A stretch of DNA of 61,943 nucleotides from Thermoplasmata archaeon (GCA_041489255.1 JBGPQV010000016.1:1-61943), one strand, 5' to 3'; positions 32,708-55,654 are shown, numbered from the stretch's first letter. Program-made: numbers and translations. The notes: generated by a model not told the origin, from the letters alone.

Positions 32708-32800
32708 TCGGTCAAGTGGAACCAATACGACCGTTAAAAACTTCTGCGACCAAGGTCGAGGGCGGTGTCTGTCGGTGTGCCGCCTGTCCTTACTCGAGCC

Positions 32801-32950
32801 GGAACAGCACGGGAAAGATGTCCGACGCCGCGTGCGCACGGAGATTAGAAATACAATGACGCAAGATGAGGTGTTCGCATGCGAGGGGTACGGTGGTCAG
32901 GTTCTCGGAGAAGCGTGCTCGTTTCAGCATTCTTGGTCCTCTCGCTATTT
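32801..32950 (+). repeat. Duplicated promoter plus signal-peptide segment, copy 1 (copy 2 at about 35618-35768)
   Basis: CCGACGCC..GCACGGAGA.TAGAAATACAATGA....AGATG......TCGCATGCGAGGGG...CGGAGAAGCGTGCT is shared by both copies. Confidence 0.85.
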
Positions 32951-35584
32951 ATGTTCATTCCCCCGCTGACCCAGCGGGCAATCGCCCAATATACCTGGGT
33001 CGTGGAGGTGGTGGACTTCGGGAACCTAGGGCCCAACGGCTCCTATGGCCTCAGAGAGCCTTCCTTAACGCTGGACTCCCAAGCTTGGCCACATATCGCT
33101 TACTTCGACGCATGGAATCGCAGCTTGAAGCACGCGTTCAAGGACGCCAGCGGCTGGCACACCGAGATAGTGGACCGTGCCGACTGCTTCCCCCCCGATT
33201 TCGAAGGGCCTTCACTCGTTTTGGATTCTCTGGATCAGGCCTGGATAGCCTATGGTGCGGCAACAACGCCATGCGATGCGTCGTGGGACGTCCGGCTCGC
33301 GCATTGGAACGGGGCGGTTTGGGACGTGCAGACTGTCGATCCCCCGGGGACCGTGGCAGGATGGCAACCGTCCCTCGACCTTGATGCCCTCGACCGCCCC
33401 CGGATTGCGTTCTTCGCGAACATGATGACGGATCCAGAGGTTTGGTACGCGGAGTGGGATGGCGGCTCTTGGCGGTATGAGTCTGTCGTCGCGGGCGATT
33501 TCTTGAGCGTCATGCCCCATCCCAGCGTCATCTCTCTCAAGGTGGACTCTCGGGGAAATCCAGGGCTCGCGTATGCGCAGACCGCGGATTTCAATAACCT
33601 CAGTTACTATTACAGGAACGGCGGAGTGTGGCGCTGGCAACGCGTGGACCTGACAGCGACTGCAGAGGTGGACTATATCTCCCTCGCTCTCGATTCGCGC
33701 GACTTCCCCAGCATAAGCTACGCGCACGCTGCGGGGGAGCAGCTGCGGTACGCCCGCTGGAACGGTTCCCAATGGATCCTGGATTTCCCGACAACGTTCG
33801 GCCTCACGGGCGCTGAATCGTCTCTTGCCGTCGACTCCCAAGATGAGCCTCACATCAGTTATAACCATGCTCCATCGTGGTCGGGTGGTTCGGACGTGCC
33901 GGACTACGCCTACTATGTACGGAAGTCGGGGGGTCTCTGGGTATGGCCGCAGACTCCCGACCCGACGGAGGTGGGCTGGGGGCCCTCACTTGCCCTCGAC
34001 TCGCACGACCTTCCGCACATCGCCTGGCTATTTGGCGCCGTCCGTAACGGGGCCGAACTGCGATACGCCTACGTGCCATGGGTGGACACGGAGCCGCCCG
34101 TTTCCAATGTCCTGCCAATTGCACCCTACTGGAATGGTGGTCCTGTTCAGGCAGTTGCGACGGACGAGAGCGGAGTCGCCAACATCACCCTCTGGTACCG
34201 CCACAGCACGGACAACTCGACGTGGGGACTGTGGACACGGTTCTCCACTCTAGTGTCCCCGCCGTGGACGTGGTCTTTCACATTCCCCCGAGGAGAGGGA
34301 TATTACGAGTACTACTCGACTGCCGTTGACACCATGGGGAATGTCGAACCGCCTCCCGCCACTGCTGACGCGATCGAGGGATACGACATCACCCCGCCAG
34401 TCTCCACCGCTCTCCCGATCTCACCCTACTGGCAGAGGTCCCCGTCGATCGTCGTGACCGCCACCGCCACGGACAGCCTCAGCGGCGTCGCCGATGTCAC
34501 CTTGGTATACTCCTACTCGCAGGACAATTCCACGTGGTCGCCCTGGACTCAGATCGAGACGAATACGTCGCCGCCTTGGCGATGGCCCTTCCAGTTCACG
34601 ATGGGCGAGGGATACTACAGGTTCTTCACCATCGCGAAGGACGTGGCCGGGAACGTTGAGGGGGCCAAGACCTCCCCCGAGGCCATTGCCGCCTACATCA
34701 TCCGAGCGCCGGTCACGTCCCTCTGGATTGGAAGGCCCAACTACACCCACGGGACGACGTTCATCAAGTCGATCACTCCCCTGACGCTCTCGGTCATCGA
34801 CCGGGGCGGAACGGGGATCGCCAACACGAAATACAGGCAAGACAATTCTATCTGGACTGAGTACACCGGACAGTTCTTCCTGTCAGGCGACGGGGACCAT
34901 TACCTGGAGTGGTACTCCGAGGATAATACCGGGAACCTCGAGGAGGTCTCGTGGCGGGTGCTGAGGGTCGACGACACGCCGCCATCCATGTCAATCAGTC
35001 CCGAAGATCCGAAAGTGTCTGCTGGCACATCCTTCACTCTCTTATCCGATGACGGACAGGGATGCGGAGTGGCGGGACTGGAGTACAGGATAGACAACGG
35101 CTCGTGGATTACCTACTACTCGCCGTTCACCCTGTCAGAGGGATGGCACAACATCACATACAGGTCTTGGGACCACCTGAACAACTCAATCGAGAAGACT
35201 CATATGGTTGAGCTGATCCCGCCTGAGGTCCCGCCTGGCGGGAAGGTGGATGTGAACTACAAGCCGATCGTGGCGGTGATATTCGCGATCATCCTCATTC
35301 TCGTCGGGATGTGGTCGTCGAAGAGGAGGCCGTGGAAAGGCGGGAAGGATACAATAGCGGTGGTGAAGGCGTTCATGGTCACACCCCTGCCGTTCGTCCT
35401 CGCAGAGGCGGGAACCGGAATCGTGTCCCTCTTCACGGGACAACTCTCGATACCTCCGCTAATAGGAGTCGGTACGGCTGTCGATCTCGCGATCCTGATG
35501 GCGGGAATCTCAGTTGCACTCCTCAGGGCTTTGAAGCCGGAGACGCCAGGTGCGGAGGAGAGGGAAAATCCGAGGAGCTGTTGA
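32879..35584 (+). CDS. Surface protein A: signal peptide, beta-propeller, 2 Ig-like, 2 OmpL47-like units, NYKP anchor
   Basis: SLALDS..PHI(A/S)Y blades; PP.S..LPI.PYW units; YR.D...W..Y...F.L..G.H units; C-terminal NYKP domain. Confidence 0.85.
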   Translation: MRGVRWSGSRRSVLVSAFLVLSLFMFIPPLTQRAIAQYTWVVEVVDFGNLGPNGSYGLREPSLTLDSQAWPHIAYFDAWNRSLKHAFKDASGWHTEIVDRADCFPPDFEGPSLVLDSLDQAWIAYGAATTPCDASWDVRLAHWNGAVWDVQTVDPPGTVAGWQPSLDLDALDRPRIAFFANMMTDPEVWYAEWDGGSWRYESVVAGDFLSVMPHPSVISLKVDSRGNPGLAYAQTADFNNLSYYYRNGGVWRWQRVDLTATAEVDYISLALDSRDFPSISYAHAAGEQLRYARWNGSQWILDFPTTFGLTGAESSLAVDSQDEPHISYNHAPSWSGGSDVPDYAYYVRKSGGLWVWPQTPDPTEVGWGPSLALDSHDLPHIAWLFGAVRNGAELRYAYVPWVDTEPPVSNVLPIAPYWNGGPVQAVATDESGVANITLWYRHSTDNSTWGLWTRFSTLVSPPWTWSFTFPRGEGYYEYYSTAVDTMGNVEPPPATADAIEGYDITPPVSTALPISPYWQRSPSIVVTATATDSLSGVADVTLVYSYSQDNSTWSPWTQIETNTSPPWRWPFQFTMGEGYYRFFTIAKDVAGNVEGAKTSPEAIAAYIIRAPVTSLWIGRPNYTHGTTFIKSITPLTLSVIDRGGTGIANTKYRQDNSIWTEYTGQFFLSGDGDHYLEWYSEDNTGNLEEVSWRVLRVDDTPPSMSISPEDPKVSAGTSFTLLSDDGQGCGVAGLEYRIDNGSWITYYSPFTLSEGWHNITYRSWDHLNNSIEKTHMVELIPPEVPPGGKVDVNYKPIVAVIFAIILILVGMWSSKRRPWKGGKDTIAVVKAFMVTPLPFVLAEAGTGIVSLFTGQLSIPPLIGVGTAVDLAILMAGISVALLRALKPETPGAEERENPRSC

Positions 35585-35617
35585 TGGTCGGCGAACCGTC
35601 AGTCGCCATGCCAATCT

Positions 35618-35768
35618 GGAACCGCCGCGGCGCGGCTGCCCGACGCCTTCTAAGCACGGAGAATAGAAATACAATGAAGTCAGATGGGACGCTCGCATGC
35701 GAGGGGTTCTGTGCCCGGGGTCACGGAGAAGCGTGCTTGTTTCTGCACTCGTAGTGCTCTCTCTCCTG
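35618..35768 (+). repeat. Duplicated promoter plus signal-peptide segment, copy 2
   Basis: Aligns to 32801-32950. Confidence 0.85.
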
Positions 35769-38700
35769 GCGGTTACTCCTTTAGGGCCAATCCCCTCGGC
35801 CGCGTTGCCTGGAAGAGATTCGTCCGTTCCGTCGATGAGCCAAACCGGACGCGACATCCTCGACATCTTCCATTCCACAGGCGGCTACTTCACCGAGAAT
35901 AGGGGGCAGGTCAACGTTGCGGTGCGCTACTACTCACGAGGGAATCCCGCGGTTGCATTCAGGGACGACGGGGTCATGTTCGTCATGACCAAGTGGTCGG
36001 GAGTCGATGATGCGGCATTAATGCGATCGCCCTTCGGGCGCAATCGGCCTTTCGGTTCATCCGGGCAACTCATCCCGAGTGAGTCGCTGGCTTACATGAT
36101 GCGCTTCGATGGTTCGAACATTGTCCGACCCATCGGTTTGGAGAGACTTCACTTTGACAGCAACTTCTTCATCGGGAGCGATTCCTCGAAGTGGGCGACG
36201 GACGTCCCCAACTATGCTGAGATCGTATATCGCGACCTCTACCAAGGCATCGATCTCTCTTTCCGCATGACAGCCTCAGGACCGAAGTACGAGTTCACGA
36301 TCCAGCCCGGGGCGGACATCAGTGCGATCAGAATTGCACCTGACGGTGTCGAGTCGGTGTCGGTCGACGCCGATGGTGTCGCTATGAGCACGCTGCTTGG
36401 CAGCGTCCGCGATCTCCCGCCATATTCCTTCCAGGAATCAGGCGATCCGATCGCATGCAGCTTCATCCCCCGAGGAAAGGAAGCATACGGATTCGACTGC
36501 GCCTCCTGGGACAGGTCCCGTCGATTGACCATCGACCCGCTGATATACTCGACTTTCCTCGGCGGGAGTTCATCTCGGGAGTACGCGGATTCTATCGCTG
36601 TTGATGATGCTGGTAGTGCCTACGTCACCGGGATGACCTACTCCGCGGATTTCCCTGTCACAGTTGGCGTCATCTACACCAGCTTGAATGGTACGTCGGA
36701 TGCATTCGTGTCGAAGTTGTCTCCAGACGGCAGCACGCTTGAGTATTCCACGTACCTGGGCGGCGGATCAGACGAGTGGACGGCTTCGATCGCCCTCGAT
36801 TCATCTGGTGGCGCTTACGTCGTTGGCGTGACGGATTCTACAGATTACCCCACCACGCCCGGCGCCTACGACACCTCGTACAACGGCGGCTATAACGACA
36901 TATTCGTGACGGAATTGAACCCTACGGGAAGCTCTCTTCTCTATTCCACATACATAGGCGCCTATCTTGAGGAGGTTGGGTACTCCATCGTCCTAGACAG
37001 TTCGCGTCACGCGTACATCACGGGCAAGACATGGTCGGACACCGGTTTCCCGACCACTACCGGTGCCTACGACACGACATTCAACGACAGACCCTCCTAC
37101 AATGATGGTGACGTAATCGTCATCAAGCTCACCCCTGCGGGGGACGATCTTGTCTATTCCACATTCATTGGCGGGGCAGGTTGGGAAGTGGGAATGGCGA
37201 TCGCCTTGGACTCCTCAGGCAACGCTTTCGTGACAGGGGACACTGAGTCGGTCGATTTCCCGGTAAGTCCGGGGGCCATGAACACCACTAGCCTATACCC
37301 CGGAGGCCAAACCTTCGTCGCGAAATTAAACGCCGCCGGGAGTTCCCTGGTCTACTCCGCCTTGATAGGCAGGGCTCAATCGCCTCACGATGGAGGACGT
37401 GCGATCATTGCAGACTCGTTCGGAGCGGTGTATGTGGCTGGGACTACATCGGGTTTCTCGGCGACCGCAGGCGCCTATCAAACGTCGTTCGCAGGTGACA
37501 ACAACGACGGGTTCCTGGCGAAGCTGGATTCCATCGGATCCGCGTTTGCCTATGGCACATATCTCGGCGGCAGCGATGACGACTATATCTATGCTCTCGC
37601 CTTGGACTCTGGCGGAAACGCCTATGTCTCGGGTAGGACGTTTTCTGCAGATTACCCTGTCACCGCTGATGCGTTCGACACAATGCTCGATGGCACGGAT
37701 GCGTTCCTGACTGAGGTGAATCCGACCGGGAGTGCTCTGGTCAACTCGACTTTCTTGGGAGGCAACGATTCTGAATACGGCTATGGCTTGGCTCTTGATT
37801 CATTTGGCAGCGTATATGTCGTCGGACCCACATCTTCCCCGGACTTCCCCGTCACCGCGGATTCGTTCGACGAGACCTACAACGGCTTCGATGATGCGTT
37901 CGTCACCAAACTCGGCCTCGGAGGGGGCGCCAACAAGCCGGATCTTGAGGTCCTTCCCGGTTACATTGTGTTCAGCCCGCCAAGTCCGATCGGCATGGGC
38001 GCCACGGTCAACATCAATGTGATGGTTCACAACGTGGGATTCCGCAACGCGTACAACATCGTCGTCAGGTTCTACGACGGGGCACCAGTTGCGGGAAACC
38101 AGATAGACGGCGATAAGGTCATACCGGTCATCGACATTCATCTCCCGGTCGGCGGAGCCTCTGTCATTTGGCTCGCTGTGCCTCCTAGGTTCCACGACAT
38201 CTGCATCGTTGCGGACCCCGATAATTCCATAGATGAAGTGAACGAGACCAACAACGAAGCCTGCGCGCAGTTAGAGGTGATCATCCCGCCAGTGCCCGAT
38301 CTGACGATTCTTCAGCAGGATGTCCTCTTGTTCCCCGCACCCCCCATCGTCGAGGGGTCGATCGTGCGCATCAACGCAACCGTGCGCAACATCGGAGGGG
38401 TTGCGTCAGGGGCCACGGCTGCAAGGTTCCATGACGGTCTCCCGCCTTCACCGCAGATAGACGTTGACCAGTCACTTGCCACGATGCCTTCCGGGGGGTC
38501 GCAGACCGTTTCCGTTGTCTGGATCGCACTCCCTCCGGGGAGCCACAACCTGTGCGCCATCGCGGACCCGGACAACCTCGTGAGCGAACTGGACGAGGGG
38601 AATAATATGGCTTGCTTCGCGGTAGAGGTGTTACCGGTGACAAAGCCTGACTACCTGCCATTCCAACCGGAGCCGCCATCACCTAGCAGTATCGGTCTCT

Positions 38701-40196
38701 CTCTTCCCATCGTCTTCTCCGTAGTCGTGCACAACCAAGGCAATGCGACCACAGTCAACGAATCGACCCTCGCATTTTGCGACGAGCAGAATCCCGGCAT
38801 TCCATTTGCCGAGTTCAGGGTGAGTCCGCTCCTTCCTGGCAGCGATTCCTCGCGGTATACAGCCACGTGGACATCTCCCGCCATACCCGGGACTTACCTC
38901 GTGTCCGTTGACGTGGACTACTACGATAATGTGAGTGAGTGGGACGAGACGAACAACGTGTACACATGGACGATTGATGTCGCGTCTGCGCCTGTCACCT
39001 TGGCTGACTACGTTCCGACTCAGACCGAGCCGCCCACGCCGCTCAAAATCGGCACCTCTTCCACCGTCCTCCTCTCGTTGCGAGTGCTCAACAAGGGAAA
39101 CGCCACCGCGCAGGCGAACGCCACGATCCTCGCGTTCTACAGCGAACCACCGCCCACTCTGCCTTTTGCAGAGTTCGTGGTTTTCCCTCTTCCTCCCGAT
39201 GGGGTGTCCCCGCGCTACACCGCCGAATGGAGGTCTCCCGCCGTCCCTGGCGTGTACAGCGTGACTGCGGACGTGGACTACTTTGACGACGAGATCGAGT
39301 GGAACGAGACTGACAACCTGCACATATGGATTGTCGAGGTGGTCATCGGTCCTGTCACATCTCTCGTCGTCGGCGCTCCGAACTATACTTCCACCGCGAC
39401 GTACGTGAGGTCTTCCACCGCCCTCGGTCTCTCGGTATCGGACCGTGGCGGGACTGGGATAAACTTCACGAGATATCGGATAGACGGCGGCCAGTGGATA
39501 GACTACGGAGATCAGTTCTTCCTGGCGGGAGAAGGGGAGCACTCCATTGAGTGGTATTCCGAGGACAACGCCGGGAACAGGGAGGACGTAGTTCACAGGG
39601 CACTGCGGGTCGATGACACTCCCCCCTCCACGTCGATATCTCCCGCCAACTGTCCATGCACTGCCGACACATTGTTCACCCTCACTGGCACGGACAGTGG
39701 AAGCGGCGTGAACGTCACCAGGTACAGGATAGACGGCGGCGAATGGACAGTCTACACAAATGGATTCACCGTCCCGGAGGGTGAGCACAACATCTCATTC
39801 TACTCGGTGGACAACCTGAACAACACCGAGCCGGAGAGATGGCTGGTGGTCAAGCCACCGCCCGAGGTGGCAGTGAACTACAAGCCGATCGTGGCTCTCA
39901 CATTCGCAATCATCCTGCTCGTGGCGGGAGTTTGGTCGTCGAAGAAGAGACCGTGGAAGGGCGGGAAGGAGAGGAGGGCGGTGGTAAAGGCGTTCATGCT
40001 CACTTCGATGCCATTTGTGCTCGCAGAGGCGGCAACTGGCGTGGTGTCTTTCCTCACCGGGCAGCTGTCGATACCGCCCCTGGTTGGAGCGGGGACTGCC
40101 GTTGACCTGGCTATTCTCTTGGCCGGAATAGTTGCCGCAATCCTCCGGATAGTGAGGACAAAACCATCAGGAGCAGGGGAAACGGGTACGCCGTAG
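35697..40196 (+). CDS. Surface protein B: SBBP beta-propeller, CARDB repeats, OmpL47-like units, NYKP anchor
   Basis: FTENRGQ N-domain; YST(F/Y)LGG..IA.D..G.AYV.G.T.S.DFP repeats; E..E.NN CARDB ends; C-terminal NYKP domain. Confidence 0.88.
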   Translation: MRGVLCPGSRRSVLVSALVVLSLLAVTPLGPIPSAALPGRDSSVPSMSQTGRDILDIFHSTGGYFTENRGQVNVAVRYYSRGNPAVAFRDDGVMFVMTKWSGVDDAALMRSPFGRNRPFGSSGQLIPSESLAYMMRFDGSNIVRPIGLERLHFDSNFFIGSDSSKWATDVPNYAEIVYRDLYQGIDLSFRMTASGPKYEFTIQPGADISAIRIAPDGVESVSVDADGVAMSTLLGSVRDLPPYSFQESGDPIACSFIPRGKEAYGFDCASWDRSRRLTIDPLIYSTFLGGSSSREYADSIAVDDAGSAYVTGMTYSADFPVTVGVIYTSLNGTSDAFVSKLSPDGSTLEYSTYLGGGSDEWTASIALDSSGGAYVVGVTDSTDYPTTPGAYDTSYNGGYNDIFVTELNPTGSSLLYSTYIGAYLEEVGYSIVLDSSRHAYITGKTWSDTGFPTTTGAYDTTFNDRPSYNDGDVIVIKLTPAGDDLVYSTFIGGAGWEVGMAIALDSSGNAFVTGDTESVDFPVSPGAMNTTSLYPGGQTFVAKLNAAGSSLVYSALIGRAQSPHDGGRAIIADSFGAVYVAGTTSGFSATAGAYQTSFAGDNNDGFLAKLDSIGSAFAYGTYLGGSDDDYIYALALDSGGNAYVSGRTFSADYPVTADAFDTMLDGTDAFLTEVNPTGSALVNSTFLGGNDSEYGYGLALDSFGSVYVVGPTSSPDFPVTADSFDETYNGFDDAFVTKLGLGGGANKPDLEVLPGYIVFSPPSPIGMGATVNINVMVHNVGFRNAYNIVVRFYDGAPVAGNQIDGDKVIPVIDIHLPVGGASVIWLAVPPRFHDICIVADPDNSIDEVNETNNEACAQLEVIIPPVPDLTILQQDVLLFPAPPIVEGSIVRINATVRNIGGVASGATAARFHDGLPPSPQIDVDQSLATMPSGGSQTVSVVWIALPPGSHNLCAIADPDNLVSELDEGNNMACFAVEVLPVTKPDYLPFQPEPPSPSSIGLSLPIVFSVVVHNQGNATTVNESTLAFCDEQNPGIPFAEFRVSPLLPGSDSSRYTATWTSPAIPGTYLVSVDVDYYDNVSEWDETNNVYTWTIDVASAPVTLADYVPTQTEPPTPLKIGTSSTVLLSLRVLNKGNATAQANATILAFYSEPPPTLPFAEFVVFPLPPDGVSPRYTAEWRSPAVPGVYSVTADVDYFDDEIEWNETDNLHIWIVEVVIGPVTSLVVGAPNYTSTATYVRSSTALGLSVSDRGGTGINFTRYRIDGGQWIDYGDQFFLAGEGEHSIEWYSEDNAGNREDVVHRALRVDDTPPSTSISPANCPCTADTLFTLTGTDSGSGVNVTRYRIDGGEWTVYTNGFTVPEGEHNISFYSVDNLNNTEPERWLVVKPPPEVAVNYKPIVALTFAIILLVAGVWSSKKRPWKGGKERRAVVKAFMLTSMPFVLAEAATGVVSFLTGQLSIPPLVGAGTAVDLAILLAGIVAAILRIVRTKPSGAGETGTP

Positions 40197-40445: not shown

Positions 40446-41270
40446 TTAGACATCTTTCACCTTGCTCGACCAAAGCGGGACATTGGGCAATCCGACGGCA
40501 ACTGCATCGCCTCCGCGAATGATGAATGGCGTGCCATCAGCTAACCAAACCAAATAACCGCTGCCGGAGTAGTGAGTCGAGATGCGTTCCACTGTGTTTA
40601 TCTGGTCAATAGGAATTTTCTTCGTCTTCCTTCTCGAGCTAGTCCTTATGGCCTTCGCGAAAACCATTGTTTCGTTCTCGAGTCTGCTCGGTCTCGCGAC
40701 CGTGAATCCGTAATGCTTGCCCACAAGGAGGGGTCTCTTGACGCCCTCCCGGTAGGATTCGCCGAAGGCGGCGCAAATTCGTTCAAGTATCTCGAGGCCA
40801 CGACTCCCAAAACCTTTTTGATCGAGATAGATTCTTGGGCCATCGCGGAGTCTGAGGACTACCCCAAAGGAACCTCTTGGATTATCTTTGAATTCCACTT
40901 CAACGACTTCGGCAAGCGAGATCTCCCAAGTCCATCCTCTCCCCATCCTTCTGAATGGGAACTCCAAGCCCAGGACCCCGTCCCTGATTACTCGCGAGCG
41001 CTCTGAAACTACGAAGAAGACAACAACCATTGCAAAACCAGTTACAATCAGCATCAGCAGTATCCGGGGGATATAACCCACGACGTCATTTATTCCGGAA
41101 AGAAGGGACTGTACAACCAAGTAATCCGACCCAACAACCGCTGCTATGATCGTTCCAGCGACAACGGTTTGTCTAATAGCACGAAGCCGCCTCTGAGCCT
41201 TCGTAGGAACGAATTTCAGGTTGGACAGTTCGGAAACTGGCTTTTTGTCGTCTTGTATTGCTTCAACCAT
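40446..41270 (-). CDS. 2-TM protein with PH-like beta domains; candidate immunity protein
   Basis: Two TM helices, then EISLAEVVEVEF..VVLRLRDG and KIPIDQINTVE..LVWLADG units; GGAGGG RBS; 8-nt overlap with the upstream giant gene. Confidence 0.7.
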   Translation of the reverse strand: MVEAIQDDKKPVSELSNLKFVPTKAQRRLRAIRQTVVAGTIIAAVVGSDYLVVQSLLSGINDVVGYIPRILLMLIVTGFAMVVVFFVVSERSRVIRDGVLGLEFPFRRMGRGWTWEISLAEVVEVEFKDNPRGSFGVVLRLRDGPRIYLDQKGFGSRGLEILERICAAFGESYREGVKRPLLVGKHYGFTVARPSRLENETMVFAKAIRTSSRRKTKKIPIDQINTVERISTHYSGSGYLVWLADGTPFIIRGGDAVAVGLPNVPLWSSKVKDV

Positions 41271-50200: not shown

Positions 50201-50205
50201 CGCAT
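41263..50205 (-). CDS. Giant (~2980 aa) secreted multidomain protein with a hydrophobic C-terminal domain; candidate toxin or adhesin
   Basis: Signal peptide, Asp-box SxDGG propeller, about 5 FN3, PPC, DTDGDGLSD Ca-binding repeats, 2 LamG, ~340-aa amphipathic/TM tail. Confidence 0.85.
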   Translation of the reverse strand: MRPLSVKLGSLFCVAVMVIVVFQQVQRAGAPADVAGGAGNGAIGEDWESSRPVAFGEGDSLAPSAAAAGDGVLHLAWIDSRTGSNAVYYKRSDDGGDSFTGDRRLSDAGVRPGRPSVAASSDGVHVVVSWDSIVNVNNHTGRAVVFRHSADGGVKWERTTFVEFGSQPRVAFQGDDMILAFLQDDWVNGATYLRVLRLSYSTVTQGPVGDLLSFVTSGSAFSIIVSGVSLHVLWNELIQGRMTILHSSVDLSSGRVDGAHLVSLVTGTLTPDSIAFASFRGRIVAAWSETRSGVARVFAAKSADGGVSWTSSVALTDGKSNARHPELAANATGRLFFVWQDDGLGPWQLYGSVLMDLGIPVRTAVRLSYSKSDAVLPAAAVDSAGHAYLFWQDRRNARSEVYMDGDLALHRPLIGSILVYAGRLPLSSFATPQETSRASFLQLLRDMYPLIAMSEEQAAAMKIRNDIIPRMDGSLGGSGSDDLLVEPEAQRHLAWSFHLMLRELDPPSQSDGTRSGGGWGITADEPLPPDTGFQYSAYAPVFNITVSDITSTTARVDWETDPPNAYATWLNWGPNVTMGNQILAYGPPYNVTISGLTANTTYYYGVQAVLFTTPPPPMWQCYDSFYTGVVIKDMDYYATSASNVTVWWETNLPSTSLVRYNTTEDYGLTATGANGTFHEVNLTGLDPRNTYHVQMESAAISDSALWIRSGDMNFTSHLFIKNFTQAKAAFAGGSYYVKMSWNTTRNATSEVRFGNTTLYGSQVNGTSGKTHNVTLWNLKSATTYFFQARSVGLANANDTDAVAGVPFGTPPISVYNITVNATTSSATISWESNYNGTSVVRCGSTSNYTNNVTGSSGTLHSIAISNLLSNTTYHFRVESTALANANDTATGLDRTFTTKGILVSNVQIPSIGQTTATITWNTNIAGTSVVRYGKNSIWEYTATGANGTSHSVNLAGLLPDTVYKCRAESSTVTNLNDTNVSLMNIFLTAYAPNDAGSGQDAGNSIPFALPIEPGAYTGRIQGLAPPPPPPPPADPYDFYRFIAFGNQTIRAQLVPPPYMDLDLYLYGPNSQMMASSQMRGFGLKETIVFTATTPGLWYLEVRYFATNGPLFGYYGLTFNVTGGGPDRLVRDVGAQAGSQGDAILLGNLPGLSIDSTTGWGQPARWNGQSRGTFWNMNNNPWYRNASANAVFYLNLYRNSHEKYTDYLLTFQYYASADSNLSVYNGAGWVNVTTLPGKANWWTWSFVLDHTMFYDKLPSTFGINVAMRFSSPVKVDNISAVAYGYSTYVGHGSDDSDALFHSPGILTGPGWADTGNGYKNGLNHSELILNIPDTGATYNVDFRFKGDVTSLSVEQYTGTAWVEIARLVSFSTDNHFNTNQSAYYDAYPFVPGMNVLVRFVAYAVNEFSYASMHIVRWFDEVGVTGDNFLWLHDPGMSLYPNGQWDPITILDGRLVRQAQPGAEVYLSAPLIDSGYVVYLTYKAMATGHVEQWHDGAYEILGDTLGDSQWHTGTYRTNASFYRDYYGSAQLNVMLHFTVQLFVDRMWAEPDQDGDHQTEYGETQSYPSQTLPNGTPPISFNFPAYTSGTYRFEGRSRGDFDQSNSGYQFSEQDFYVNNTLVQVVIGAFEQNHKIGHLEEDVWINKTSVPPGWQRDFSFDVSFCSGPKTMKVERTGLPSEIAYWQYTRIESWTKSNDTDGDGLSDYDEACVYHTAVNDPDTDRDGLTDYDELYSFQYRNNSAPGYLANVTMNITVNAFARYSFSIRTTALAQGGSVSAQVYVDGQQKVTKNTSNGWSNQSFNFVSSMAKGMHSLQIQRGSGLGKVWVFEAEVDRVEITSPLYPDTDKDGLSDGGEVKGLTGFYTSPTIADTDGDKVPDGNETKVLRTDPTKKDTDGDGFNDGVDLDPLHDLIVQVTVKQLYGVDDCPEQYTCTAWSEVGVNGKYTIGSEAPINSLRERPAHYLAVNVPDDRKWAMVVISAFRNDPNGQVQIDLTRDASRSVIVNFTVGDNKLWGYSYGTDTPPAPTATLYYEIRTVKFGKVNTVLMTPTDWSTVQNGSTGAHRFVGEQRFAVININTMDAGGAEAYWNMEQKETIGTTVYYKDLTGHGHRAGWGTLPQVQGYWGYGVHLEDGNNWLETSDNPKLHFKDEMTISFWVMPHVDYHTGDSAKWYWAVGKKDAWRIGWLGSTNGLRFEIKNGSQDYIVDSPTVVPLDQGSWYHITAEYDGMNMTIYLGNSVLVSQMKGAFWIGENSEPVQIGRDWDGSCFDGVVDEVALYGRALSNGEVGIVNTKIVDLDMDTRLKNNDVDAAGILGYEDLSGHGNYARAEGASVVTDVRPVEGQRGLAVQVLNDARLMVSEGAGVGVTKLTLSVRLQWLGGNVIQTVAYAEGLQNGLWVGLYSMSVAGPAGTVRYALRRESGALTTIYPPNVKLPPNEWHVATLTYDGQYSIFYIDGEKMHTYDWGSPASLATFDSTRLCIARCASDALFNGFFDDLTLWNRSLSQGEIRALNYLDRGLNGIVVPRGLFMQSEFFASMNSSDGSAFHPGNPLLGSTIMGNDNPRELNARVVQQLVAANLTLAEAWTWILKLQRNSTGMDTSFPLVVTDEIYTIGFDQALMNVLPNMTVENSGNHSVPPPPIRKPSYWELLWNSFTGLVSAVWNAVVAVCTFIANVVAAVVKWGIGLAMAIAEGKGLEYIYDTVVKPFVDAILAFVKWIIDFVMAVLTAAVRFLLESITNILKEALSSISGGLIRMYESFENNADFLVAAIAVSAAIFSLAVALAALPLIVRAAEIVFKAVTLGFAWLVSKIATQTFLDFVIQFLAGITLACSLSMITVEILTTVSWMTNATLGLLSGLGIASSMMARAGSMIAYSLGGLSSSMSTANEFMKRWIGFGISVVALLLLMQSALMPQKGPAKMCVDFATLAVSIFGLFYYVKWSQSDAMETMDWLSDIAKMLEKIITFSSPFVILALIGVRWATGGYNG

Positions 50206-51303
50206 TCTTCCTCCTCTCCATTGCGGCGGCCCACTCCGCATTTTGCCGCGGGGGGCACAAGAGCCACGCGGTTTATAATGCTTTGCCCGACAAGTTCCGC
50301 AAGAGCCCTGAAACCGATTCTCATGAAGGCGCCTGGAGTACCGGTGAAGAAGGCCACGCCCCTCGCTGCGGCTAACGCCTTTAAATCCTTATCAGACAAG
50401 GCAATCGCGTTGCCATTGCGCTACGGCTGGCAACGGGAGTTGCGTTCCTCCTATACGCTGGCGCATTCCTCTTCCAGGAAGTGATTGCACGCGTGACGGG
50501 TTGGACCATGGAGAGAACCCCTGGCAGGGCGAAACGTAGGAGGAAGCGCTGAGGGAGTCAAAGAACGCCCTTCAATCGAAAGGGACATTCCTAGCAATGG
50601 TGGCGGCCCACCTACAGCGACGCACATCACGGAAGGCCTTTGAGACTGAGAACGAACTGGCATTGAAAGGTGGTAAATGGCCCGAAACAGACCTGTGCAG
50701 TGTATCATGACGGCCTCCCGATTGTCACCGCATGCATTCTCTTGCCTAGTCAGCACCGCTGAAAACCACCCCAGCGATCGAGATATTGGATTTCCGAGAC
50801 ATCCGGAGGAATCCAAGTCCTTTCAACTTACTCTCGGCGGTTTCATTTAACGATTGTCAATGCGACAGTAGGTTCAGACCGCCCGGCTTCTGCAAAACGA
50901 CCCAGCTCATCTGCGCCCACTGTGTGCATCCGATGCGGTGAGTCAAGGGAGAACATCGTCCGCAACGCTATCATCGCCGATAGCCTTGCCGAAAACAACC
51001 TCAATCTTCCCCAGTTCGCTTTTTCGGGATGACGTACACGATCTCCATCGTGGGGGCTGCAAAGTTCTCGTACGTCACCATGGCGACTCCTCAAAGGGAA
51101 TTTTCCTTGCAGCCGAATTCTCCCTCAGCCATCTTCTCTACCCCGTGACGGTCCACTTTTGGGATGCAGCGACGCTCAAGACCGCCCGAGATGAAGACGG
51201 AGTCTCCCTGCGGCGATTACTGAATTGTGAGAGGGGTGAGCCGATCTGGAGTATCACGAACCCTCCGCAAGGATTATGACCGAGTCCGTGGTGGCATGCT
51301 GCG

Positions 51304-52137
51304 ATGCCGTCCCGCGCGGTCAAGGAACACTACGACATCAAGGGCGAGGAGGAGTGGGAGCGCCTCGAAAAGGATGCCTACCACCGCTTGGAGTGGCTGA
51401 CGACCGTCCGTTTCCTCGAGAGGTATCTGCCCGGTAGCGGGACGGTTCTAGACGCTGGCGGCGGACCGGGACGCTACGCGATCTTCCTGGCGAAGCGGGG
51501 CTTGCGGGTTGTTCTCCTCGACCTTTCCGGGGTGCAGCTTGGGATTGCACGGCGGAAGGTGGCCGAGGCAGGCGTCGCTCCGGGAGCTGTCGACTACGTC
51601 GAAGGCGCCCTACCCGACCTTTCGAGATTTCCCGAGCAGCACTTCGATGCCGTGCTCTGTCTGGGCCCCCTGTCCCATCTAGTCGAGGAAGCGGATCGCG
51701 CCGCAGCGGTCGAGGAACTCGTGCGAGTCACCAAGAAAGGAGGACCCCTATTCGTGTCCGTCATCGGCCGGTACGCCGTGCACAGGACTGTCCTGCAAGA
51801 TCCCGCGAAACACTCGGAACTCCTAGCGGCGGACCACCGGGACACGTTCGAAAAAGGCATCCACCGCGACCATCCCCCGCGACCGACTCATCGCCTCGTC
51901 GAAGGCTACTACTTCCTCCCGGACGAGCTTCGAAAGTCATTCGAGGGTTGCGGGGTCGAAACCCTCGCCGTCGCCTCGTGTGAGGGCTTGGCCGACCACC
52001 TCCAAGAGCCGTTGGCCCGGCTGGCCCAAAATGAGCAGCTGTGGGCCCGATGGTTGGAACTCCACTGGCAGACCTGCACGGACCCTTCCATCCTGGGGGC
52101 GGGTGAGCACATCCTCTTCGTTGGTCGGAAGCGATAG
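51304..52137 (+). CDS. Class I SAM-dependent methyltransferase
   Basis: VLDAGGGPGRY, LLDLS, FDAVLCLGPL. Confidence 0.9.
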   Translation: MPSRAVKEHYDIKGEEEWERLEKDAYHRLEWLTTVRFLERYLPGSGTVLDAGGGPGRYAIFLAKRGLRVVLLDLSGVQLGIARRKVAEAGVAPGAVDYVEGALPDLSRFPEQHFDAVLCLGPLSHLVEEADRAAAVEELVRVTKKGGPLFVSVIGRYAVHRTVLQDPAKHSELLAADHRDTFEKGIHRDHPPRPTHRLVEGYYFLPDELRKSFEGCGVETLAVASCEGLADHLQEPLARLAQNEQLWARWLELHWQTCTDPSILGAGEHILFVGRKR

Positions 52138-52256
52138 GGACAACGGCCGGGGGATTCGTGTGGACGTTCCTTGGCGGTTCACCGCCAGTCCCCTTGCTGG
52201 AGCGTATGGGGTCTGAATGGCAATGTCGATTCTGCATCAACTTCGCCCTGAAAACG

Positions 52257-55200
52257 CTAGACAGCGGACTTCTCCTTGTCTCCGAGAGACTTCCTCGTCG
52301 TCCTCAGGAGCGAGAACAGCAGTCCGACTGCTAGGATGGCGCTGTCCACGCCAGTCCCCCATCCGACGAGGGGAGGTATCCTGAGAGGCTCGAAGTAGAT
52401 GGAGATGAGGCCTGTGGCCGCCTCCGCCGAAATGAACGGCAAGGCCAGAACGGCCCAGGAAAGGAGGAACCTCTTTCTCTGGCCATTGCCCCAGGGCAGT
52501 GGGCGCTTTCTCGCTGAGTATGCTGCCGCAAAGATCAGGATGACGGAAAAGAGCAGGGCGACCAAAGGCTTGTAGTTGAACTCCACACGTCCCTCCGGAG
52601 GCGTCTCAGATCCGACCACTTCCACCGGGAGGCTCTTCTCGACCGAGTTGTTCAGGTTGTCCGATGACCTGTACTCTATCAGGTGATGCCCTATGCCCAA
52701 GGTGAACGAGGAGGAGTATGGAGTCCAATCTCCGCCGTCTGTCCTGTACTCCACTGATGCGACACCGCTTCCTTGTCCGTCGTCTGCGGAGATGGTGAAG
52801 TGAGTGTTCACAAGGACGGTCGACTCCTCTGGATCGATCGAGAGGGATGGGGCAGCGTTGTCCAAGACGAGGGTGACGTTCTGGACTGCTTCCCTGTTCC
52901 CGAGGAAGTCGAACGAGAGAAATTCGACGAACCACATCCCGTCTCTTCCTACTAGGCTGAAGGAGGAAGTGTACTCCCGCCACTGAGACCAAGTCCCGTT
53001 CCAGAGGCGGTAGAATGTCGAGTTGGTGCCGACAGGCATCAATCCGCCATCATCTGCATGAAGAGTCAGGGGAGTGGATGACTTGGTGAAGTTACCGCCG
53101 ACCAGGTACTTCGGGTCGCCGATTGATAAGGTTGTGGCGGGAGGAGTGTTATCGACCCTCAGCACCCGCCACGAGATGTCCTCGACGTTGCCGACATTGT
53201 CCTCGGAGTAGTACTCGACGTAGTGATTGCCCTCGCCGGAGAGGAAGAACGAGAATGAGTGTTCAATCCACGTGACGTTGTCTATCCTGTACCAGGTGTG
53301 GTTGATGCCCGAGCTGCTTTGGTCCAAGGCGGAGAGGTCGAGGGGGGTGGAGGACCTGACGTATGCTGTTGCGGCGATGTAGTTGGGCTGACCGATGACG
53401 AGTGAGGTGACCGGGCCGGGCACGACGTTGAATGTCCAAGTATAGTTGTTGTTTGTCTCGTTCGACTCGGTCATGTTGTCATAGTAGTCGACGTTCGCAA
53501 CGACGCGACAGGTGCAGGGTGTGGCGGGAGATGTCCAGTTAGCGGTGAAGGGGCCTGAGATGATTCCGGCAGGGATGGACGGTATCTCCGCCGTGAAGAA
53601 CGGGGAGGAGGGCCGCGATTCGTTGTAGAAAGCAAGGGTGGAGGTGACGTTTTCGAAGCCTCCTGCGTTCAGCACCTCGATGGACATCTGGAGGGGCAGA
53701 GAGAGGCCGATGGTGGCGGGCGAAGACGGGAGTAGACTAACGGGCGCATAGTCCGGCGGGACCCGATAGCCTGCAATCGCCTCCGCGTAGTCCTTCCTTC
53801 CCTCGACGTTCCTCGCCACGTCACGGGCAATCGTGTGGAACTTGTAGTGGCCCTCGCCATCGGGGAATGGGAACGTCCAGGACCAAGGTCCCGCCGTCTT
53901 CGTTTCAAGGGGGGTCCACAGAGTCCACGATGAGTTGTCAAGAGGAGCATATGAATAGAGCATGGTTACTTCCGCGACTCCGCTCAGGCTGTCTGTGGCG
54001 GTGGCGTTGACGACCATGGGAGGGGAGCTGTACCAGTATGGTGATGTCGGCAGTGCCGCGGAGACTGGCGGTGTGATGTCGTAGCCCGCGATTGAGTCAG
54101 CGGACAGAGGAGGAGGTTCGGTGTTGCCTACGTTGTCCACAGAGGTAGTGTAGAACTCGTAGTATCCCTCTCCATCTGGAAATGTGAATGACCATGACCA
54201 AGGAGCCGAAGCAAGAGTGGAGTACTGTGTCCACAATCCCCAGGTCGAGTTGTCAACGCTTTGGCGGTACCATAGTGTGACGCTGGCGACGCCGGAGCAG
54301 GAGTCCGACGCCGATGCGTCCACGACCAACGGGGACGAGTTGCGCCAGTACATGCCCGTCAGTGTGGCGGACGACGAGGGCGGCGTGGCGTCAAGACCCC
54401 CACGGTAGGCGTATCGCAGTTCAGATGCCGTGGCGTTTATCCACTCGTAGGCGATGTGCACGCCGTCGCACCCGTCCACTGCGATTGAAAGAGGATACCA
54501 AGTGCCTTCCTGGGTGTCGACTGTCGCCAGAACCCAACTCATGCCGTTCCACTCCGCATAGTACAGGAGGGGAGGAGGAGTGTTGTGTTCTCCGGCAGTG
54601 TATGCGATGTGTGGCCGATTCAGGGTATCGACGGCTATGCTCGAATACGTTCCACGCCACGGGTAATCCACCGATTGAGCCATCCACCCCAAGAGTCCGC
54701 GGGTTGCATACTCGAGCCGATCGTCCGGTGTCACCCTCCTGAAGGATACGTGTGGTGTCTGGGTGGAGTCCAGAACCATCGAGGGTAAGTCCCCAGTTTC
54801 TCCGCCGCCGATGATGTGCTCAACAACCTCGTCCACCCATGAGGACCCGCTCCAATAGGCAAAATGCAGAGCATAGTTTGAATACGCGATTCGCGGGCGA
54901 TCCGAGGAGTCCAAGGCCAGCGAGAGACCGAATTGACCAGTGTAAGATCCGAACGTATCGAGAGAACTCAATGTCGAGATATCCCACCCAGTCCCGTTGT
55001 GAATCGCGTACCTAATCGACCAGTTTACCGCCAAAGGAGCGACCCACTGGTACGCTATGTGAGGCCTGTCAAGCGAGTCTATCGCCAGGCTTGGCTGGTA
55101 GCCCACGTTGCCCTGATTGTCAACTACCTCGTAGTACCAAATCCCGCCCTCCTTGTGCGAGTACTTCAGGACTTGGTTCACTTCATCCCTGTACGCGACG

Positions 55201-55574
55201 TGCGGCTGGTCTTGCGAGTCGAGCGCCAAGGAGACCTTCTCGCCCAGGATCACCGACGGGTCCGCGGTCTCAAACTGCCAGGTGGATCCGGTCCACGAGG
55301 CGTAACGCAGCTCGTAACCTCCAGGCTTTGCGGCACCGAACGCGATATGGGGCCTGCCCAAGCTGTCCAGCTTGAGCGAGGGGAAGAATCCTGCAGCTTG
55401 GTCGCCGCTCCCACCAGCCAATACCTGTATGTTCCATCCCGCAGCGCTGACGTTTGGCGACACGATGGAGAACATCACAAACACGCTGGATGAGACCATG
55501 ATCAATGCGATCACAAACGCCCCGAAAAGCGAGTGAACCCTCCTGCGTTCCCTTCGATTCGCCAAACCACCCAT
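52257..55574 (-). CDS. Surface protein C: beta-propeller, 2 Ig-like, CARDB-like, 3 OmpL47-like units, NYKP anchor
   Basis: Same module types as proteins A and B; C-terminal FNYKPLVALLF...AEAATG...IPPLVGWGTGVD. Confidence 0.85.
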   Translation of the reverse strand: MGGLANRRERRRVHSLFGAFVIALIMVSSSVFVMFSIVSPNVSAAGWNIQVLAGGSGDQAAGFFPSLKLDSLGRPHIAFGAAKPGGYELRYASWTGSTWQFETADPSVILGEKVSLALDSQDQPHVAYRDEVNQVLKYSHKEGGIWYYEVVDNQGNVGYQPSLAIDSLDRPHIAYQWVAPLAVNWSIRYAIHNGTGWDISTLSSLDTFGSYTGQFGLSLALDSSDRPRIAYSNYALHFAYWSGSSWVDEVVEHIIGGGETGDLPSMVLDSTQTPHVSFRRVTPDDRLEYATRGLLGWMAQSVDYPWRGTYSSIAVDTLNRPHIAYTAGEHNTPPPLLYYAEWNGMSWVLATVDTQEGTWYPLSIAVDGCDGVHIAYEWINATASELRYAYRGGLDATPPSSSATLTGMYWRNSSPLVVDASASDSCSGVASVTLWYRQSVDNSTWGLWTQYSTLASAPWSWSFTFPDGEGYYEFYTTSVDNVGNTEPPPLSADSIAGYDITPPVSAALPTSPYWYSSPPMVVNATATDSLSGVAEVTMLYSYAPLDNSSWTLWTPLETKTAGPWSWTFPFPDGEGHYKFHTIARDVARNVEGRKDYAEAIAGYRVPPDYAPVSLLPSSPATIGLSLPLQMSIEVLNAGGFENVTSTLAFYNESRPSSPFFTAEIPSIPAGIISGPFTANWTSPATPCTCRVVANVDYYDNMTESNETNNNYTWTFNVVPGPVTSLVIGQPNYIAATAYVRSSTPLDLSALDQSSSGINHTWYRIDNVTWIEHSFSFFLSGEGNHYVEYYSEDNVGNVEDISWRVLRVDNTPPATTLSIGDPKYLVGGNFTKSSTPLTLHADDGGLMPVGTNSTFYRLWNGTWSQWREYTSSFSLVGRDGMWFVEFLSFDFLGNREAVQNVTLVLDNAAPSLSIDPEESTVLVNTHFTISADDGQGSGVASVEYRTDGGDWTPYSSSFTLGIGHHLIEYRSSDNLNNSVEKSLPVEVVGSETPPEGRVEFNYKPLVALLFSVILIFAAAYSARKRPLPWGNGQRKRFLLSWAVLALPFISAEAATGLISIYFEPLRIPPLVGWGTGVDSAILAVGLLFSLLRTTRKSLGDKEKSAV

Positions 55575-55654
55575 TCCTCTCTGGTTTATTGTCACGCCTT
55601 CTTAGACGATAAAAGTATTGGCGGGAGGCAGTGAAAACCGCCCCCCGGGGCAGG

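What the first reader, a model, noticed from the sequence alone, without database searches (positions are those of the whole stretch)
32879..55574. Shared C-terminal 'NYKP' three-helix anchor on three surface proteins: possible new archaeal sorting signal
Seen: proteins A (anchor 35255-35584), B (39876-40196) and C (52577-52257) all end in NYKP.VA..F..IL......S..(K/R)RP...(L/M)PF..AEA.TG..S.....L.IPPL.G.GT.VD.AIL..G. This includes invariant Glu and Asp in hydrophobic helices and an IPP loop. Many A/B differences are synonymous, which suggests protein-level selection. Established: PGF-CTERM, PEF-CTERM and LPXTG are short motifs followed by a single TM helix. The 17.4-kb protein in this window uses such a plain single-TM tail. 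Inference: a dedicated recognition, processing or oligomerisation module for surface display. I do not recognise a named family for it.
Basis: partly seen in the sequence, partly recalled or inferred. Interest (0 to 1): 0.8.

Follow-up and report, generated by a model that had tools for sequence, protein, structure and literature searches.

The report
Three-helix membrane anchor on archaeal proteins
Three large surface proteins of an uncultured archaeon end in the same undescribed 100-residue, three-helix membrane tail, which is also found on hundreds of otherwise unrelated surface proteins in related archaea and most likely fastens them permanently to the cell membrane.

Summary
Genes A (32879-35584), B (35697-40196) and C (52257-55595, minus strand) each have a signal peptide, glycoprotein-like passenger domains and a ~105-aa tail. 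The tail reads N[YW]KP-TM1, a basic loop (RRPWKG), TM2 (PF..AE..TG..S), an IPP turn, then TM3 (G.G..VD..IL..G).

It is a real, modular domain family. A profile of the three tails finds 352 cluster representatives, and in 146 of the best 150 the match ends within 40 aa of the C-terminus. The passengers are unrelated (CARDB, PKD, fn3, beta-helix, VWA, propellers). The Glu and Asp are 99-100% conserved, and synonymous sites are saturated. All 23 genomic loci come from Thermoplasmata-type archaeal MAGs, with 11 complete copies in one MAG.

No Pfam, NCBIfam or PDB sequence match was found, and none of my literature searches turned up a description.

The first ~40 residues look like a classical tripartite sorting signal, and one tail-rich MAG encodes archaeosortase A. 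Other evidence favours a permanent N-out/C-in three-helix anchor. The hairpin is obligate (25 of 25). Specific residues are conserved inside every helix. Some members carry cytoplasmic zinc-ribbon or HTH extensions. No processing gene is conserved nearby.

The parts
32879..35584 (+). Gene A, 901 aa. Signal peptide, BNR-like propeller repeats, Ig-like domains, OmpL47-type barrels, NYKP tail.
   Evidence: The database gene call starts 24 codons later (877 aa).
32836..32859 (+). 24-base block upstream of A (contains TTAGAAATA, promoter-like). Repeated upstream of B; part of a ~130-nt 5' block shared with B that runs through the signal peptide.
   Evidence: 2 matches in the window, 0 in 100 shuffles; 0 matches in 23 loci
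34772..34951 (+). Best-scoring OmpL47-type beta-barrel domain of A, part of the stalk before the tail
   Evidence: NF047446, 100.7 bits, cut-off 40
35255..35584 (+). Tail of A, from the N of NYKP to the stop codon
35261..35314 (+). A tail, helix 1 (KPIVAV...GMW), out-to-in
35369..35440 (+). A tail, helix 2, with PF..AE..TG..S. The Glu codon is at 35405-35407.
35450..35458 (+). A tail, IPP turn (outside loop)
35459..35524 (+). A tail, helix 3, with G.G..VD..IL..G. The Asp codon is at 35483-35485.
35697..40196 (+). Gene B, 1499 aa. Signal peptide, DUF7948, SBBP propeller, CARDB x3, OmpL47-type barrels, NYKP tail.
35654..35677 (+). Second copy of the 24-base upstream block, before B
39663..39845 (+). 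Best-scoring OmpL47-type barrel of B
39876..40196 (+). Tail of B. Helix 1 at 39882-39935, helix 2 at 39990-40061 (Glu 40026-40028), IPP at 40071-40079, helix 3 at 40080-40145 (Asp 40104-40106).
52257..55595 (-). Gene C, 1112 aa. Signal peptide, BNR-like propeller, Ig-like domains, CARDB, OmpL47-type barrels x4, NYKP tail of the FEPLRIPP..GWG subtype.
52623..52805 (-). Best-scoring OmpL47-type barrel of C
52257..52577 (-). Tail of C. Helix 1 at 52518-52571, helix 2 at 52389-52460 (Glu 52422-52424), IPP at 52371-52379, helix 3 at 52305-52370 (Asp 52344-52346).

Best explanation
The NYKP tail is one self-contained, permanent membrane-anchor domain of three transmembrane helices. The signal peptide takes the protein through the membrane. 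Helix 1 stops transfer, the basic RRPWKG loop stays in the cytoplasm, helices 2 and 3 insert as a hairpin joined outside by the IPP turn, and the short basic C-terminus ends in the cytoplasm. The three helices pack through one conserved face each (small residues plus Glu, Thr, Ser and Asp), so the domain holds large glycosylated passengers on the cell surface without being cut off. Shown: the domain exists, is modular, is under strong purifying selection, obeys the positive-inside rule, and can carry cytoplasmic domains behind it. Inferred: the helix packing, permanence (no cleavage), and that the two buried carboxylates sit in helix-helix interfaces where they lock the bundle and probably mediate lateral contacts (self or partner).
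For: Family and position: 352 representatives at E<=1e-3, 280 at <=1e-10. In 146 of the best 150, the match ends within 40 aa of the C-terminus.

Modularity: 41 of 82 full-length hits were scanned. They carry CARDB, DUF7948+SBBP, PKD, fn3, NosD/beta-helix, FG-GAP or BNR+LTD+VWA passengers, and none has a family over the tail. 3044 of 8911 pairs among 134 full-length members share no passenger similarity. A and P0155 share 60% identity over stalk+tail but have different heads.

Topology: mean K/R content is 5.4 in loop 1, 0.2 in loop 2 and 4.6 after helix 3. Zinc-ribbon domains follow the tail in P0098 and P0152. In P0109/L022 the tail is followed by a further signal-like helix, two barrels, a helix and wHTH domains, which fits a C-in topology.

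One unit: all 25 N[YW]KP+helix 1 occurrences in the window and the 23 loci are followed by the hairpin.

Specific residues, not just hydrophobicity, are conserved inside every helix: A20, F23, L27, G31; P59, F60, E64, T67, G68, S71; G84, G86, D90, L94, G97, all at 94-100% of 143 tails. Conservation is helically periodic: moments 0.67, 0.54 and 0.47, with permutation p of 0, 0.001 and 0.016.

Selection: dN 0.14 and dS 1.2 for A/B. All synonymous codons are in use at invariant sites in 25 tails.

No conserved neighbouring gene among 329 ORFs of the 23 loci plus the window. Passengers are sequon-enriched about 2-fold, as expected for surface glycoproteins.
Against: There is no experiment, and no structure model could be made. 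A plain anchor does not need an invariant Glu and Asp in the membrane, nor an invariant N-x-K-P, so something beyond anchoring is likely. N[YW]KP + helix 1 + basic cluster meets most of Haft's criteria for a cleavable tripartite signal. Archaeosortase A is present in the tail-richest MAG and is common in Thermoplasmata, and ArtA is reported to cut an internal signal (review passage). My covariation test of the helix register was not significant (top 20 inter-helix couplings, p=0.16). Only 58 of 84 or 93 of 134 full-length members show an N-terminal hydrophobic segment. The rest may be mis-started gene calls, but that is not shown.
Confidence: 0.5

Rival explanations
1. Cleavable sorting signal with an appended handle. 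N[YW]KP + helix 1 + the basic cluster would be recognised and cut by a membrane enzyme (the lineage's archaeosortase A or an unknown one), and the passenger would be re-anchored to a lipid. The conserved hairpin would recruit or position the enzyme, or would stay behind as a small membrane protein.
For: The tail meets Haft's criteria 2, 3, 4, 6, 7 and 8 (text read). There are several copies per genome: 3 in the window and 11 complete in MAG JAFNFQ01. N, K and P are 98-99% conserved and abut the helix without a spacer. There is a basic cluster after helix 1. Most members have a signal peptide. Passengers are unrelated. Passenger homologues in other lineages have other C-terminal signals or none. 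L007 of the same MAG encodes archaeosortase A (TIGR04125, 131 bits, cut-off 75), with conserved Cys184, Arg225 and His244. ArtA homologues are frequent in Thermoplasmata MAGs. A review passage reports ArtA cutting a PGF signal in the middle of a fusion protein.
Against: There is no PGF motif, and no NCBIfam sorting-signal model hits the tails. The tripartite part ends 65-70 residues before the C-terminus in every member, and the hairpin is never missing. Conservation inside helix 1 is residue-specific. Zinc-ribbon or HTH domains behind the tail would be discarded. The ArtA gene sits beside the ATP synthase operon, in 1 of 23 loci, next to decayed tail remnants only. No peptidase is conserved near tail genes.
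Confidence: 0.15
2. Docking or oligomerisation module. The tail is permanent, but its real job is to plug many different surface proteins into a common membrane partner, or into homo-oligomers, through the membrane-embedded Glu and Asp. This would resemble receptor assemblies held by charged transmembrane residues, or proteolipid-like hairpin rings that bind an ion.
For: Glu64 is conserved in 100% and Asp90 in 99% of 143 tails, on the conserved helix faces together with Thr67, Gly68, Ser71, Gly84, Gly86 and Gly97. A conserved cytoplasmic RRPWKG loop goes beyond a mere basic cluster. Two tail subtypes coexist in one genome and predate the split from MAG JAFNFQ01 (W_C+L023 clade, support 100/99).
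Against: No partner gene is conserved nearby. hhalign against the A-type ATPase c subunit of L007 gives probability 1%, so any likeness to proteolipids is an analogy only. Most members have only 5-20 cytoplasmic residues after helix 3, which is little to signal with.
Confidence: 0.25

Closest known systems
Tripartite C-terminal sorting signals (LPXTG, PEP-CTERM, PGF-CTERM, GlyGly-CTERM, MYXO-CTERM) with their sortase-type enzymes
   Same: They sit at the C-terminal end of signal-peptide proteins, in many copies per genome, on unrelated passengers. A short, nearly invariant motif abuts a hydrophobic helix followed by basic residues (definition read; tail data).
   Different: Known signals are about 20-35 residues long, with one helix and the basic cluster at the very end. 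Here 65-70 further conserved residues follow, forming two more helices with an invariant Glu and Asp and an IPP turn. No cognate enzyme has been identified and no cleavage has been shown.
Plain single-helix C-terminal anchors of archaeal surface proteins (Sulfolobus SlaB, oligopeptide-binding proteins; passages of PMC3387779 and PMC6098224). The window's own 17426-22321 protein is of this kind.
   Same: Signal peptide, extracellular passenger, Pro-rich or stalk linker, membrane-spanning C-terminus with positive charges inside.
   Different: Those anchors are one helix without sequence conservation. The NYKP tail is a three-helix homology domain that a profile recognises at E<=1e-30 in 54 cluster representatives.
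Archaeosortase A / PGF-CTERM system
   Same: An ArtA gene (TIGR04125 above cut-off) lies in the tail-richest MAG, and ArtA is annotated in many Thermoplasmata MAGs.
   Different: The tail has N[YW]KP, not PGF. No PGF-CTERM protein was seen among 329 ORFs around tail genes. No ArtA lies in the window or in 22 of 23 loci. Co-occurrence across genomes could not be tested.
Autotransporter (type V) architecture, and small three-helix anchor subunits such as the reductive-dehalogenase anchor RdhB (both recalled; RdhB-like clusters appeared only as a weak Atlas lead, score 0.82)
   Same: Architecture only: a variable passenger with a conserved C-terminal membrane-embedded domain shared by many paralogues; or a ~100-aa three-helix unit whose job is to hold an extracytoplasmic protein at the membrane.
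   Different: There is no sequence relationship. Autotransporter domains are outer-membrane beta-barrels that also translocate. RdhB is a separate polypeptide.

Membership tests
Tripartite C-terminal sorting signal (criteria of Haft, bioRxiv 10.1101/2023.06.07.544157) | 1. [quoted passage not shown] | tested here: not met
   The whole homology domain is C-terminal (146 of 150). The motif+helix+basic unit, however, ends 65-70 residues before the end in all 25 genomic copies.
Tripartite C-terminal sorting signal | 2. Multiple occurrences in one genome | tested here: met
   3 in the window. 11 complete copies plus 3 remnants on 12 loci of MAG JAFNFQ01, and 6 in DATEUK01. These are lower bounds from two search patterns.
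Tripartite C-terminal sorting signal | 3. [quoted passage not shown] | tested here: met
   N 99%, K 99% and P 98% of 143 tails. The second residue is Y in 116 and W in 55 of 193.
Tripartite C-terminal sorting signal | 4-5. One hydrophobic helix, then a terminal cluster of 2-5 basic residues | tested here: inconclusive
   Helix 1 and a basic cluster (K/R fraction 0.7-0.9 at three columns) are present. They are followed by two further conserved helices rather than by the C-terminus.
Tripartite C-terminal sorting signal | 6. N-terminal signal peptide on most members | tested here: met
   58 of 84 and 93 of 134 full-length members have an N-terminal hydrophobic segment. A, B and C all do.
Tripartite C-terminal sorting signal | 7-8. 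Members unrelated outside the signal; homologues elsewhere lacking it or carrying another signal | tested here: met
   3044 of 8911 pairs have no passenger similarity. Of the best 120 homologues of B's passenger, 0 have the tail, 7 have single-helix C-terminal signals and 113 have none.
Tripartite C-terminal sorting signal | Cognate processing enzyme co-occurring across genomes; cleavage of the signal | not testable with these tools
   No whole genomes or proteomes were on hand. The only lead is ArtA in 1 of 23 loci.
PGF-CTERM (ArtA substrates) | PGF motif and a match to the NCBIfam PGF-CTERM model | tested here: not met
   The sequence reads N[YW]KP. No sorting-signal model was listed for 3 tails at E<=10 or for 44 tails at E<=0.01.
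Pfam DUF2162 (predicted transporter) | Score at or above the gathering threshold (34.4 bits) | tested here: not met
   The best score is 19.5 bits, E 7e-4, for tail A only. 2 of 44 tails match at E<=0.01.
A/V-type ATPase proteolipid (c subunit) hairpin | Profile-level homology | tested here: not met
   hhalign of tail alignment A3 against the c subunit of L007 gives probability 1%.

The most novel reading that the evidence does not exclude
The tail is the first polytopic sorting device. In this reading, a classical-looking signal (N[YW]KP, helix, basic cluster) is cut by a membrane transpeptidase such as the lineage's archaeosortase A. The obligate Glu/Asp hairpin behind it is the handle that recruits the enzyme, or survives as a functional small membrane protein. 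That would make it a two-part signal unlike any described one.
Probability: 0.15. Interest if true: 0.8.

Novelty: new variant of a known kind. Interest (0 to 1): 0.55.

Why it matters
The tail gives a profile-definable marker for the surface proteome of uncultured, mostly soil-derived Thermoplasmata. One model picks out dozens of adhesin-like, enzyme-like and propeller proteins per genome that databases now call 'hypothetical protein' or mislabel as 'subtilase'.

It also extends the known ways archaea attach proteins to their surface, which are lipobox anchors, a single C-terminal helix and archaeosortase signals. The addition is a conserved three-helix domain with two invariant membrane carboxylates whose chemistry is unexplained.

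If the tail is cleaved or docks to a partner, it points to an unknown piece of envelope machinery. If it is a plain anchor, it is a ready-made module for surface display in archaea.

Tried and rejected
- **Structure prediction.** Asked five times and never accepted, so there is no model and no fold search.
- **ESM Atlas.** The window tail is not held. For the stored homologue P0007, no hit reached 0.9 and the Atlas's own model is poor (pLDDT 0.48).
- **PDB sequence search with tail profiles.** Best E values were 0.99 and 2, for NuoJ and TMEM175. I treated these as noise.
- **DUF2162, TauE, FetB and similar families.** Isolated sub-threshold hits to hydrophobic families; rejected.
- **Covariation (mean-field DCA; 193 tails, Neff 178).** Some top pairs looked compatible with an antiparallel bundle. 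A formal depth-register test was not significant: top 20 p=0.16, and no signal for the top 40 or 60. I draw no structural conclusion from it.
- **Proteolipid homology.** Rejected.
- **Stand-alone tail proteins.** The short database hits are fragments or mis-started calls. The hairpin-only ORFs in L007 and L004 are decayed remnants, one with an in-frame stop.
- **Short-form signal** (motif + helix + stop): 0 of 25.
- **Tat export as a family trait.** Rejected: RR motifs occur in 26 of 93 signal regions only.
- **First genome scan with alignment A2.** Failed for lack of a conserved stretch and was repeated with A3.
Full report
**What is in the window**

Three long ORFs, A (32879-35584, +, 901 aa), B (35697-40196, +, 1499 aa) and C (52257-55595, -, 1112 aa), each begin with a signal-peptide-like segment and end in a ~105-residue tail that starts with NYKP. 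A profile of them finds only these three places in the six-frame translation of the window (E 7e-60 to 1e-53; next best E 2.9).

Each tail has the following parts:
- helix 1, directly after N-Y-K-P;
- a basic loop (SSKRRPWKGGK);
- helix 2, with PF..AE..TG..S;
- a short loop ending in IPP;
- helix 3, with G.G..VD..IL..G;
- a short basic end.

Before the tail, all three proteins carry OmpL47-type beta-barrel domains (NF047446, 100-136 bits). Further upstream the heads differ: BNR-like propeller and Ig-like domains in A and C; DUF7948, an SBBP propeller and CARDB in B. N-glycosylation sequons are about twice as frequent as composition predicts in A, B, C and the other surface proteins of the window, and nearly absent from its cytoplasmic proteins.

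The window is archaeal. It encodes exosome subunits, Cbf5 and an EMC3-like insertase.

**Selection, not recent copying**

Over 100 aligned A/B tail codons, 37 are identical, 33 differ synonymously and 30 change the residue. By Nei-Gojobori, dN is 0.14 and dS is 1.2 for the A/B tail core. A/C and B/C have dN of about 0.5 with synonymous sites at or near saturation. In 25 tails with DNA in hand (the window plus fetched loci), the invariant residues use all their synonymous codons. For example, Pro, Ala, Thr, Gly and Ser sites use four codons each, Glu is GAG 21 / GAA 4 and Asp is GAC 17 / GAT 8.

**A real, modular family**

A profile search of 1.84 billion cluster representatives with the three tails gave 352 proteins at E<=1e-3, 280 at <=1e-10 and 54 at <=1e-30. 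Of the best 150, 146 have the match ending within 40 residues of the C-terminus.

I scanned 41 of the 82 full-length hits against Pfam. They fall into these groups:
- 10 with DUF7948+SBBP;
- 13 with CARDB but without DUF7948;
- 5 with NosD/beta-helix;
- 3 with PKD only;
- 2 with BNR+LTD+VWA;
- 1 each with fn3, SBBP+Big_7, FG-GAP and Ig-only;
- 4 with no family at all.

None has a family whose best stretch lies in the tail.

After the tails are removed, 3044 of 8911 pairs among 134 full-length members share no similarity at E<=1e-3. A locally iterated profile of the OmpL47-type barrel finds a barrel within 40 residues upstream of the tail in 137 of 181 members and none at all in 38 (the profile may have drifted towards Ig-like domains in general). 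The barrel stalk is therefore usual but not obligatory.

The mosaic structure is visible in the window itself. A's head matches C (37% over ~790 aa), but its last 290 residues match B better (57.5%) than C (43.6%). A and the database protein P0155 share 60% identity over stalk and tail but have a propeller head and a beta-helix head respectively. A and B also share a ~130-nt 5' block with a promoter-like TTAGAAATA and the signal peptide. An exact 24-mer occurs at 32836 and at 35654 and nowhere else in the window or loci.

**Conservation inside the tail**

Positions below are numbered with the N of NYKP as 14. Over 143 representatives, the following are 94-100% conserved:
- N14, K16, P17;
- A20, F23, L27, G31;
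- P59, F60, E64 (100%), T67, G68, S71 (100%);
- L77, P80, P81;
- G84, G86, D90 (99%), L94, G97.

In A, the Glu is residue 843 and the Asp is residue 869. Conservation is helically periodic in all three helices, with moments of 0.67, 0.54 and 0.47 and permutation p of 0, 0.001 and 0.016. Each helix therefore has one conserved face, and that face carries the small and polar residues.

The second motif residue is Y in 116 and W in 55 of 193 unique tails. A subtype with R before IPP and GWG after it (C's type) makes up 23 of 193. C's tail and a tail of MAG JAFNFQ01 (L023) form the only well-supported clade of the tail tree (100/99), so the two subtypes are older than the split of these genomes.

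**Topology**

Mean K/R counts are 5.4 in loop 1, 0.2 in loop 2 and 4.6 after helix 3. With an exported N-terminal passenger, this gives N-out, three spans, C-in.

Three further observations fit that topology:
- P0098 and P0152 carry a zinc ribbon 40-110 residues behind the tail.
- P0153 carries a long Pro-rich end.
- In P0109/L022 the same ORF continues with a signal-like fourth helix, two more barrels, a fifth helix and two winged-helix DNA-binding domains. This is a real fusion or a read-through into the next gene.

**Who has it**

A scan of one genome per GTDB species with two tail peptide patterns gave 23 loci, all from archaeal MAGs. The MAGs are titled:
- Thermoplasmata archaeon (DATEUK01, 5 loci; DATBXC01, 2);
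- uncultured Methanomassiliicoccales archaeon (CAYNEM01, 2);
- Methanobacteriota archaeon, i.e. unclassified (JAFNFQ01, 12 loci; CP070767, 1; VBML01, 1; taxonomy).

The best identity to the window was 68%, so the window's own genome is not among them.

JAFNFQ01 has 11 complete tails plus three decayed hairpin-only remnants. DATEUK01 has six complete tails. These are lower bounds. The only organism names attached to tail proteins in the protein collection are Thermoplasmata archaeon and Methanobacteriota archaeon. Sources call them 'hypothetical protein', 'subtilase family serine protease', 'PKD repeat protein', 'VWA domain-containing protein' or 'parallel beta-helix repeat protein', always after the passenger.

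**Is it already described?**

- Pfam: nothing above threshold. DUF2162 scores 19.5 bits against a cut-off of 34.4, and 2 of 44 tails match at E<=0.01.
- NCBIfam: nothing for 44 tails.
- Precomputed Pfam lists of 80 tail proteins contain no shared family, and 4 of the 80 have none at all.
- PDB sequences: best E 0.99.
- ESM Atlas: no hit at 0.9 or above.
- Literature: 'NYKP' as a whole word gives 0 papers. Searches combining archaea or Thermoplasmata terms with anchor, surface protein, three transmembrane helices, polytopic and archaeosortase listed nothing on such a domain. For these I saw titles and abstract starts only.
- The reviews I read in passages list lipobox anchors, a single C-terminal transmembrane segment and archaeosortase-dependent anchoring as the archaeal options (PMC3387779; PMC6098224).

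Other InterPro member databases, AlphaFold DB and the closed metagenome and viral contig collections stayed unchecked.

**Anchor or sorting signal?**

Haft's criteria for tripartite sorting signals (passages) are largely met by the first ~40 residues. These residues provide several copies per genome, three near-invariant residues abutting a helix, a basic cluster, signal peptides, unrelated passengers, and passenger homologues elsewhere with other signals. On the last point, 7 of the best 120 homologues of B's passenger have single-helix signals and none has the tail.

While scanning polytopic ORFs near tail genes, I found an archaeosortase A in L007 of JAFNFQ01 (TIGR04125, 131 bits, cut-off 75; conserved Cys184/Arg225/His244). 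Its homologues are common in Thermoplasmata MAGs. A review passage reports that ArtA can cut a PGF signal lying in the middle of a fusion protein. An internal position alone therefore does not exclude processing.

Several points weigh against a cleaved signal:
- There is no PGF motif.
- The unit is never terminal, and the hairpin is never absent (25 of 25).
- Residue-specific conservation runs through helix 1 as well.
- Cytoplasmic domains sit behind some tails.
- The ArtA gene lies beside the ATP synthase operon in 1 of 23 loci, next to remnants only. No ArtA lies in the window.
- No gene family other than surface proteins recurs among 329 ORFs around tail genes. The one exception is a SAM methyltransferase next to C and next to the tail gene of L013.
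- No PGF-type tails were seen in those ORFs. Other surface proteins there use one helix plus poly-Arg.

**Verdict**

I favour a permanent three-helix anchor domain that folds as one unit (0.5).

The invariant Glu and Asp remain unexplained.

The finding is real and, as far as these checks reach, undescribed. It is a new variant of a known kind, the C-terminal attachment module of surface proteins.

Noticed in passing
window 24804-25412 (+): A 202-aa Ras/Rab-family small GTPase in an archaeal window. Pfam Ras scores E 4.6e-35. The best PDB matches are Rab1A (6e-26) and a Thorarchaeota Rab (6.7e-25).
   Followed up: partly
window 26633-32839: A low-GC block (0.51-0.52 against ~0.59) directly upstream of gene A. 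It holds a 746-aa coiled-coil/SMC-like protein, a 626-aa protein with no family, a 172-aa ORF and a SIR2_2-domain protein (31712-32839; weak PDB match to a SIR2-like protein, 8w9l). It may be a defence island.
   Followed up: partly
window 41263-50241 (-): A giant 2992-aa surface protein (Laminin_G_3, fn3, PPC, BNR-like). Its last ~330 residues hold about seven hydrophobic segments with no Pfam or PDB match. This is a second, different polytopic C-terminal membrane region in the same island.
   Followed up: partly
window 32836-32950 and 35654-35770: A and B share a ~130-nt 5' block (a promoter-like TTAGAAATA plus the signal peptide) as well as their 3' stalk and tail, with unrelated heads between. 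This is a cassette-like layout that would favour head swapping by recombination.
   Followed up: partly
L022 5537-11593 (and protein P0109); protein P0315: One ORF continues behind the tail with a signal-like helix, two OmpL47-type barrels, another helix and two winged-helix domains (HVO_0163_N, MarR/ArsR type). This is either a fusion or a read-through into a membrane-tethered transcription regulator. P0315 joins a DUF7948-SBBP-CARDB passenger to the same HTH domains.
   Followed up: partly
L007 3399-3827, 4855-5295 and 13751-14695; L004 11288-11596: Three decayed tail remnants in MAG JAFNFQ01. They keep only loop 1 to helix 3, and one has an in-frame stop at the conserved Gly. The same MAG has an archaeosortase A gene just after the A-type ATP synthase operon.
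   Followed up: yes
window 32879-32950: The database gene call for A starts at Met25 (877 aa) and cuts the signal peptide. The upstream ATG gives a signal peptide nearly identical to B's, with an SRRSVLV stretch that resembles a twin-arginine motif. RR motifs are not a family trait: 26 of 93.
   Followed up: partly
window 51304-52137 (+) and L013 6226-7041: A SAM-dependent methyltransferase lies next to tail gene C and, in MAG JAFNFQ01, next to another tail gene. It is the only non-surface gene shared between tail neighbourhoods and the window's island.
   Followed up: no
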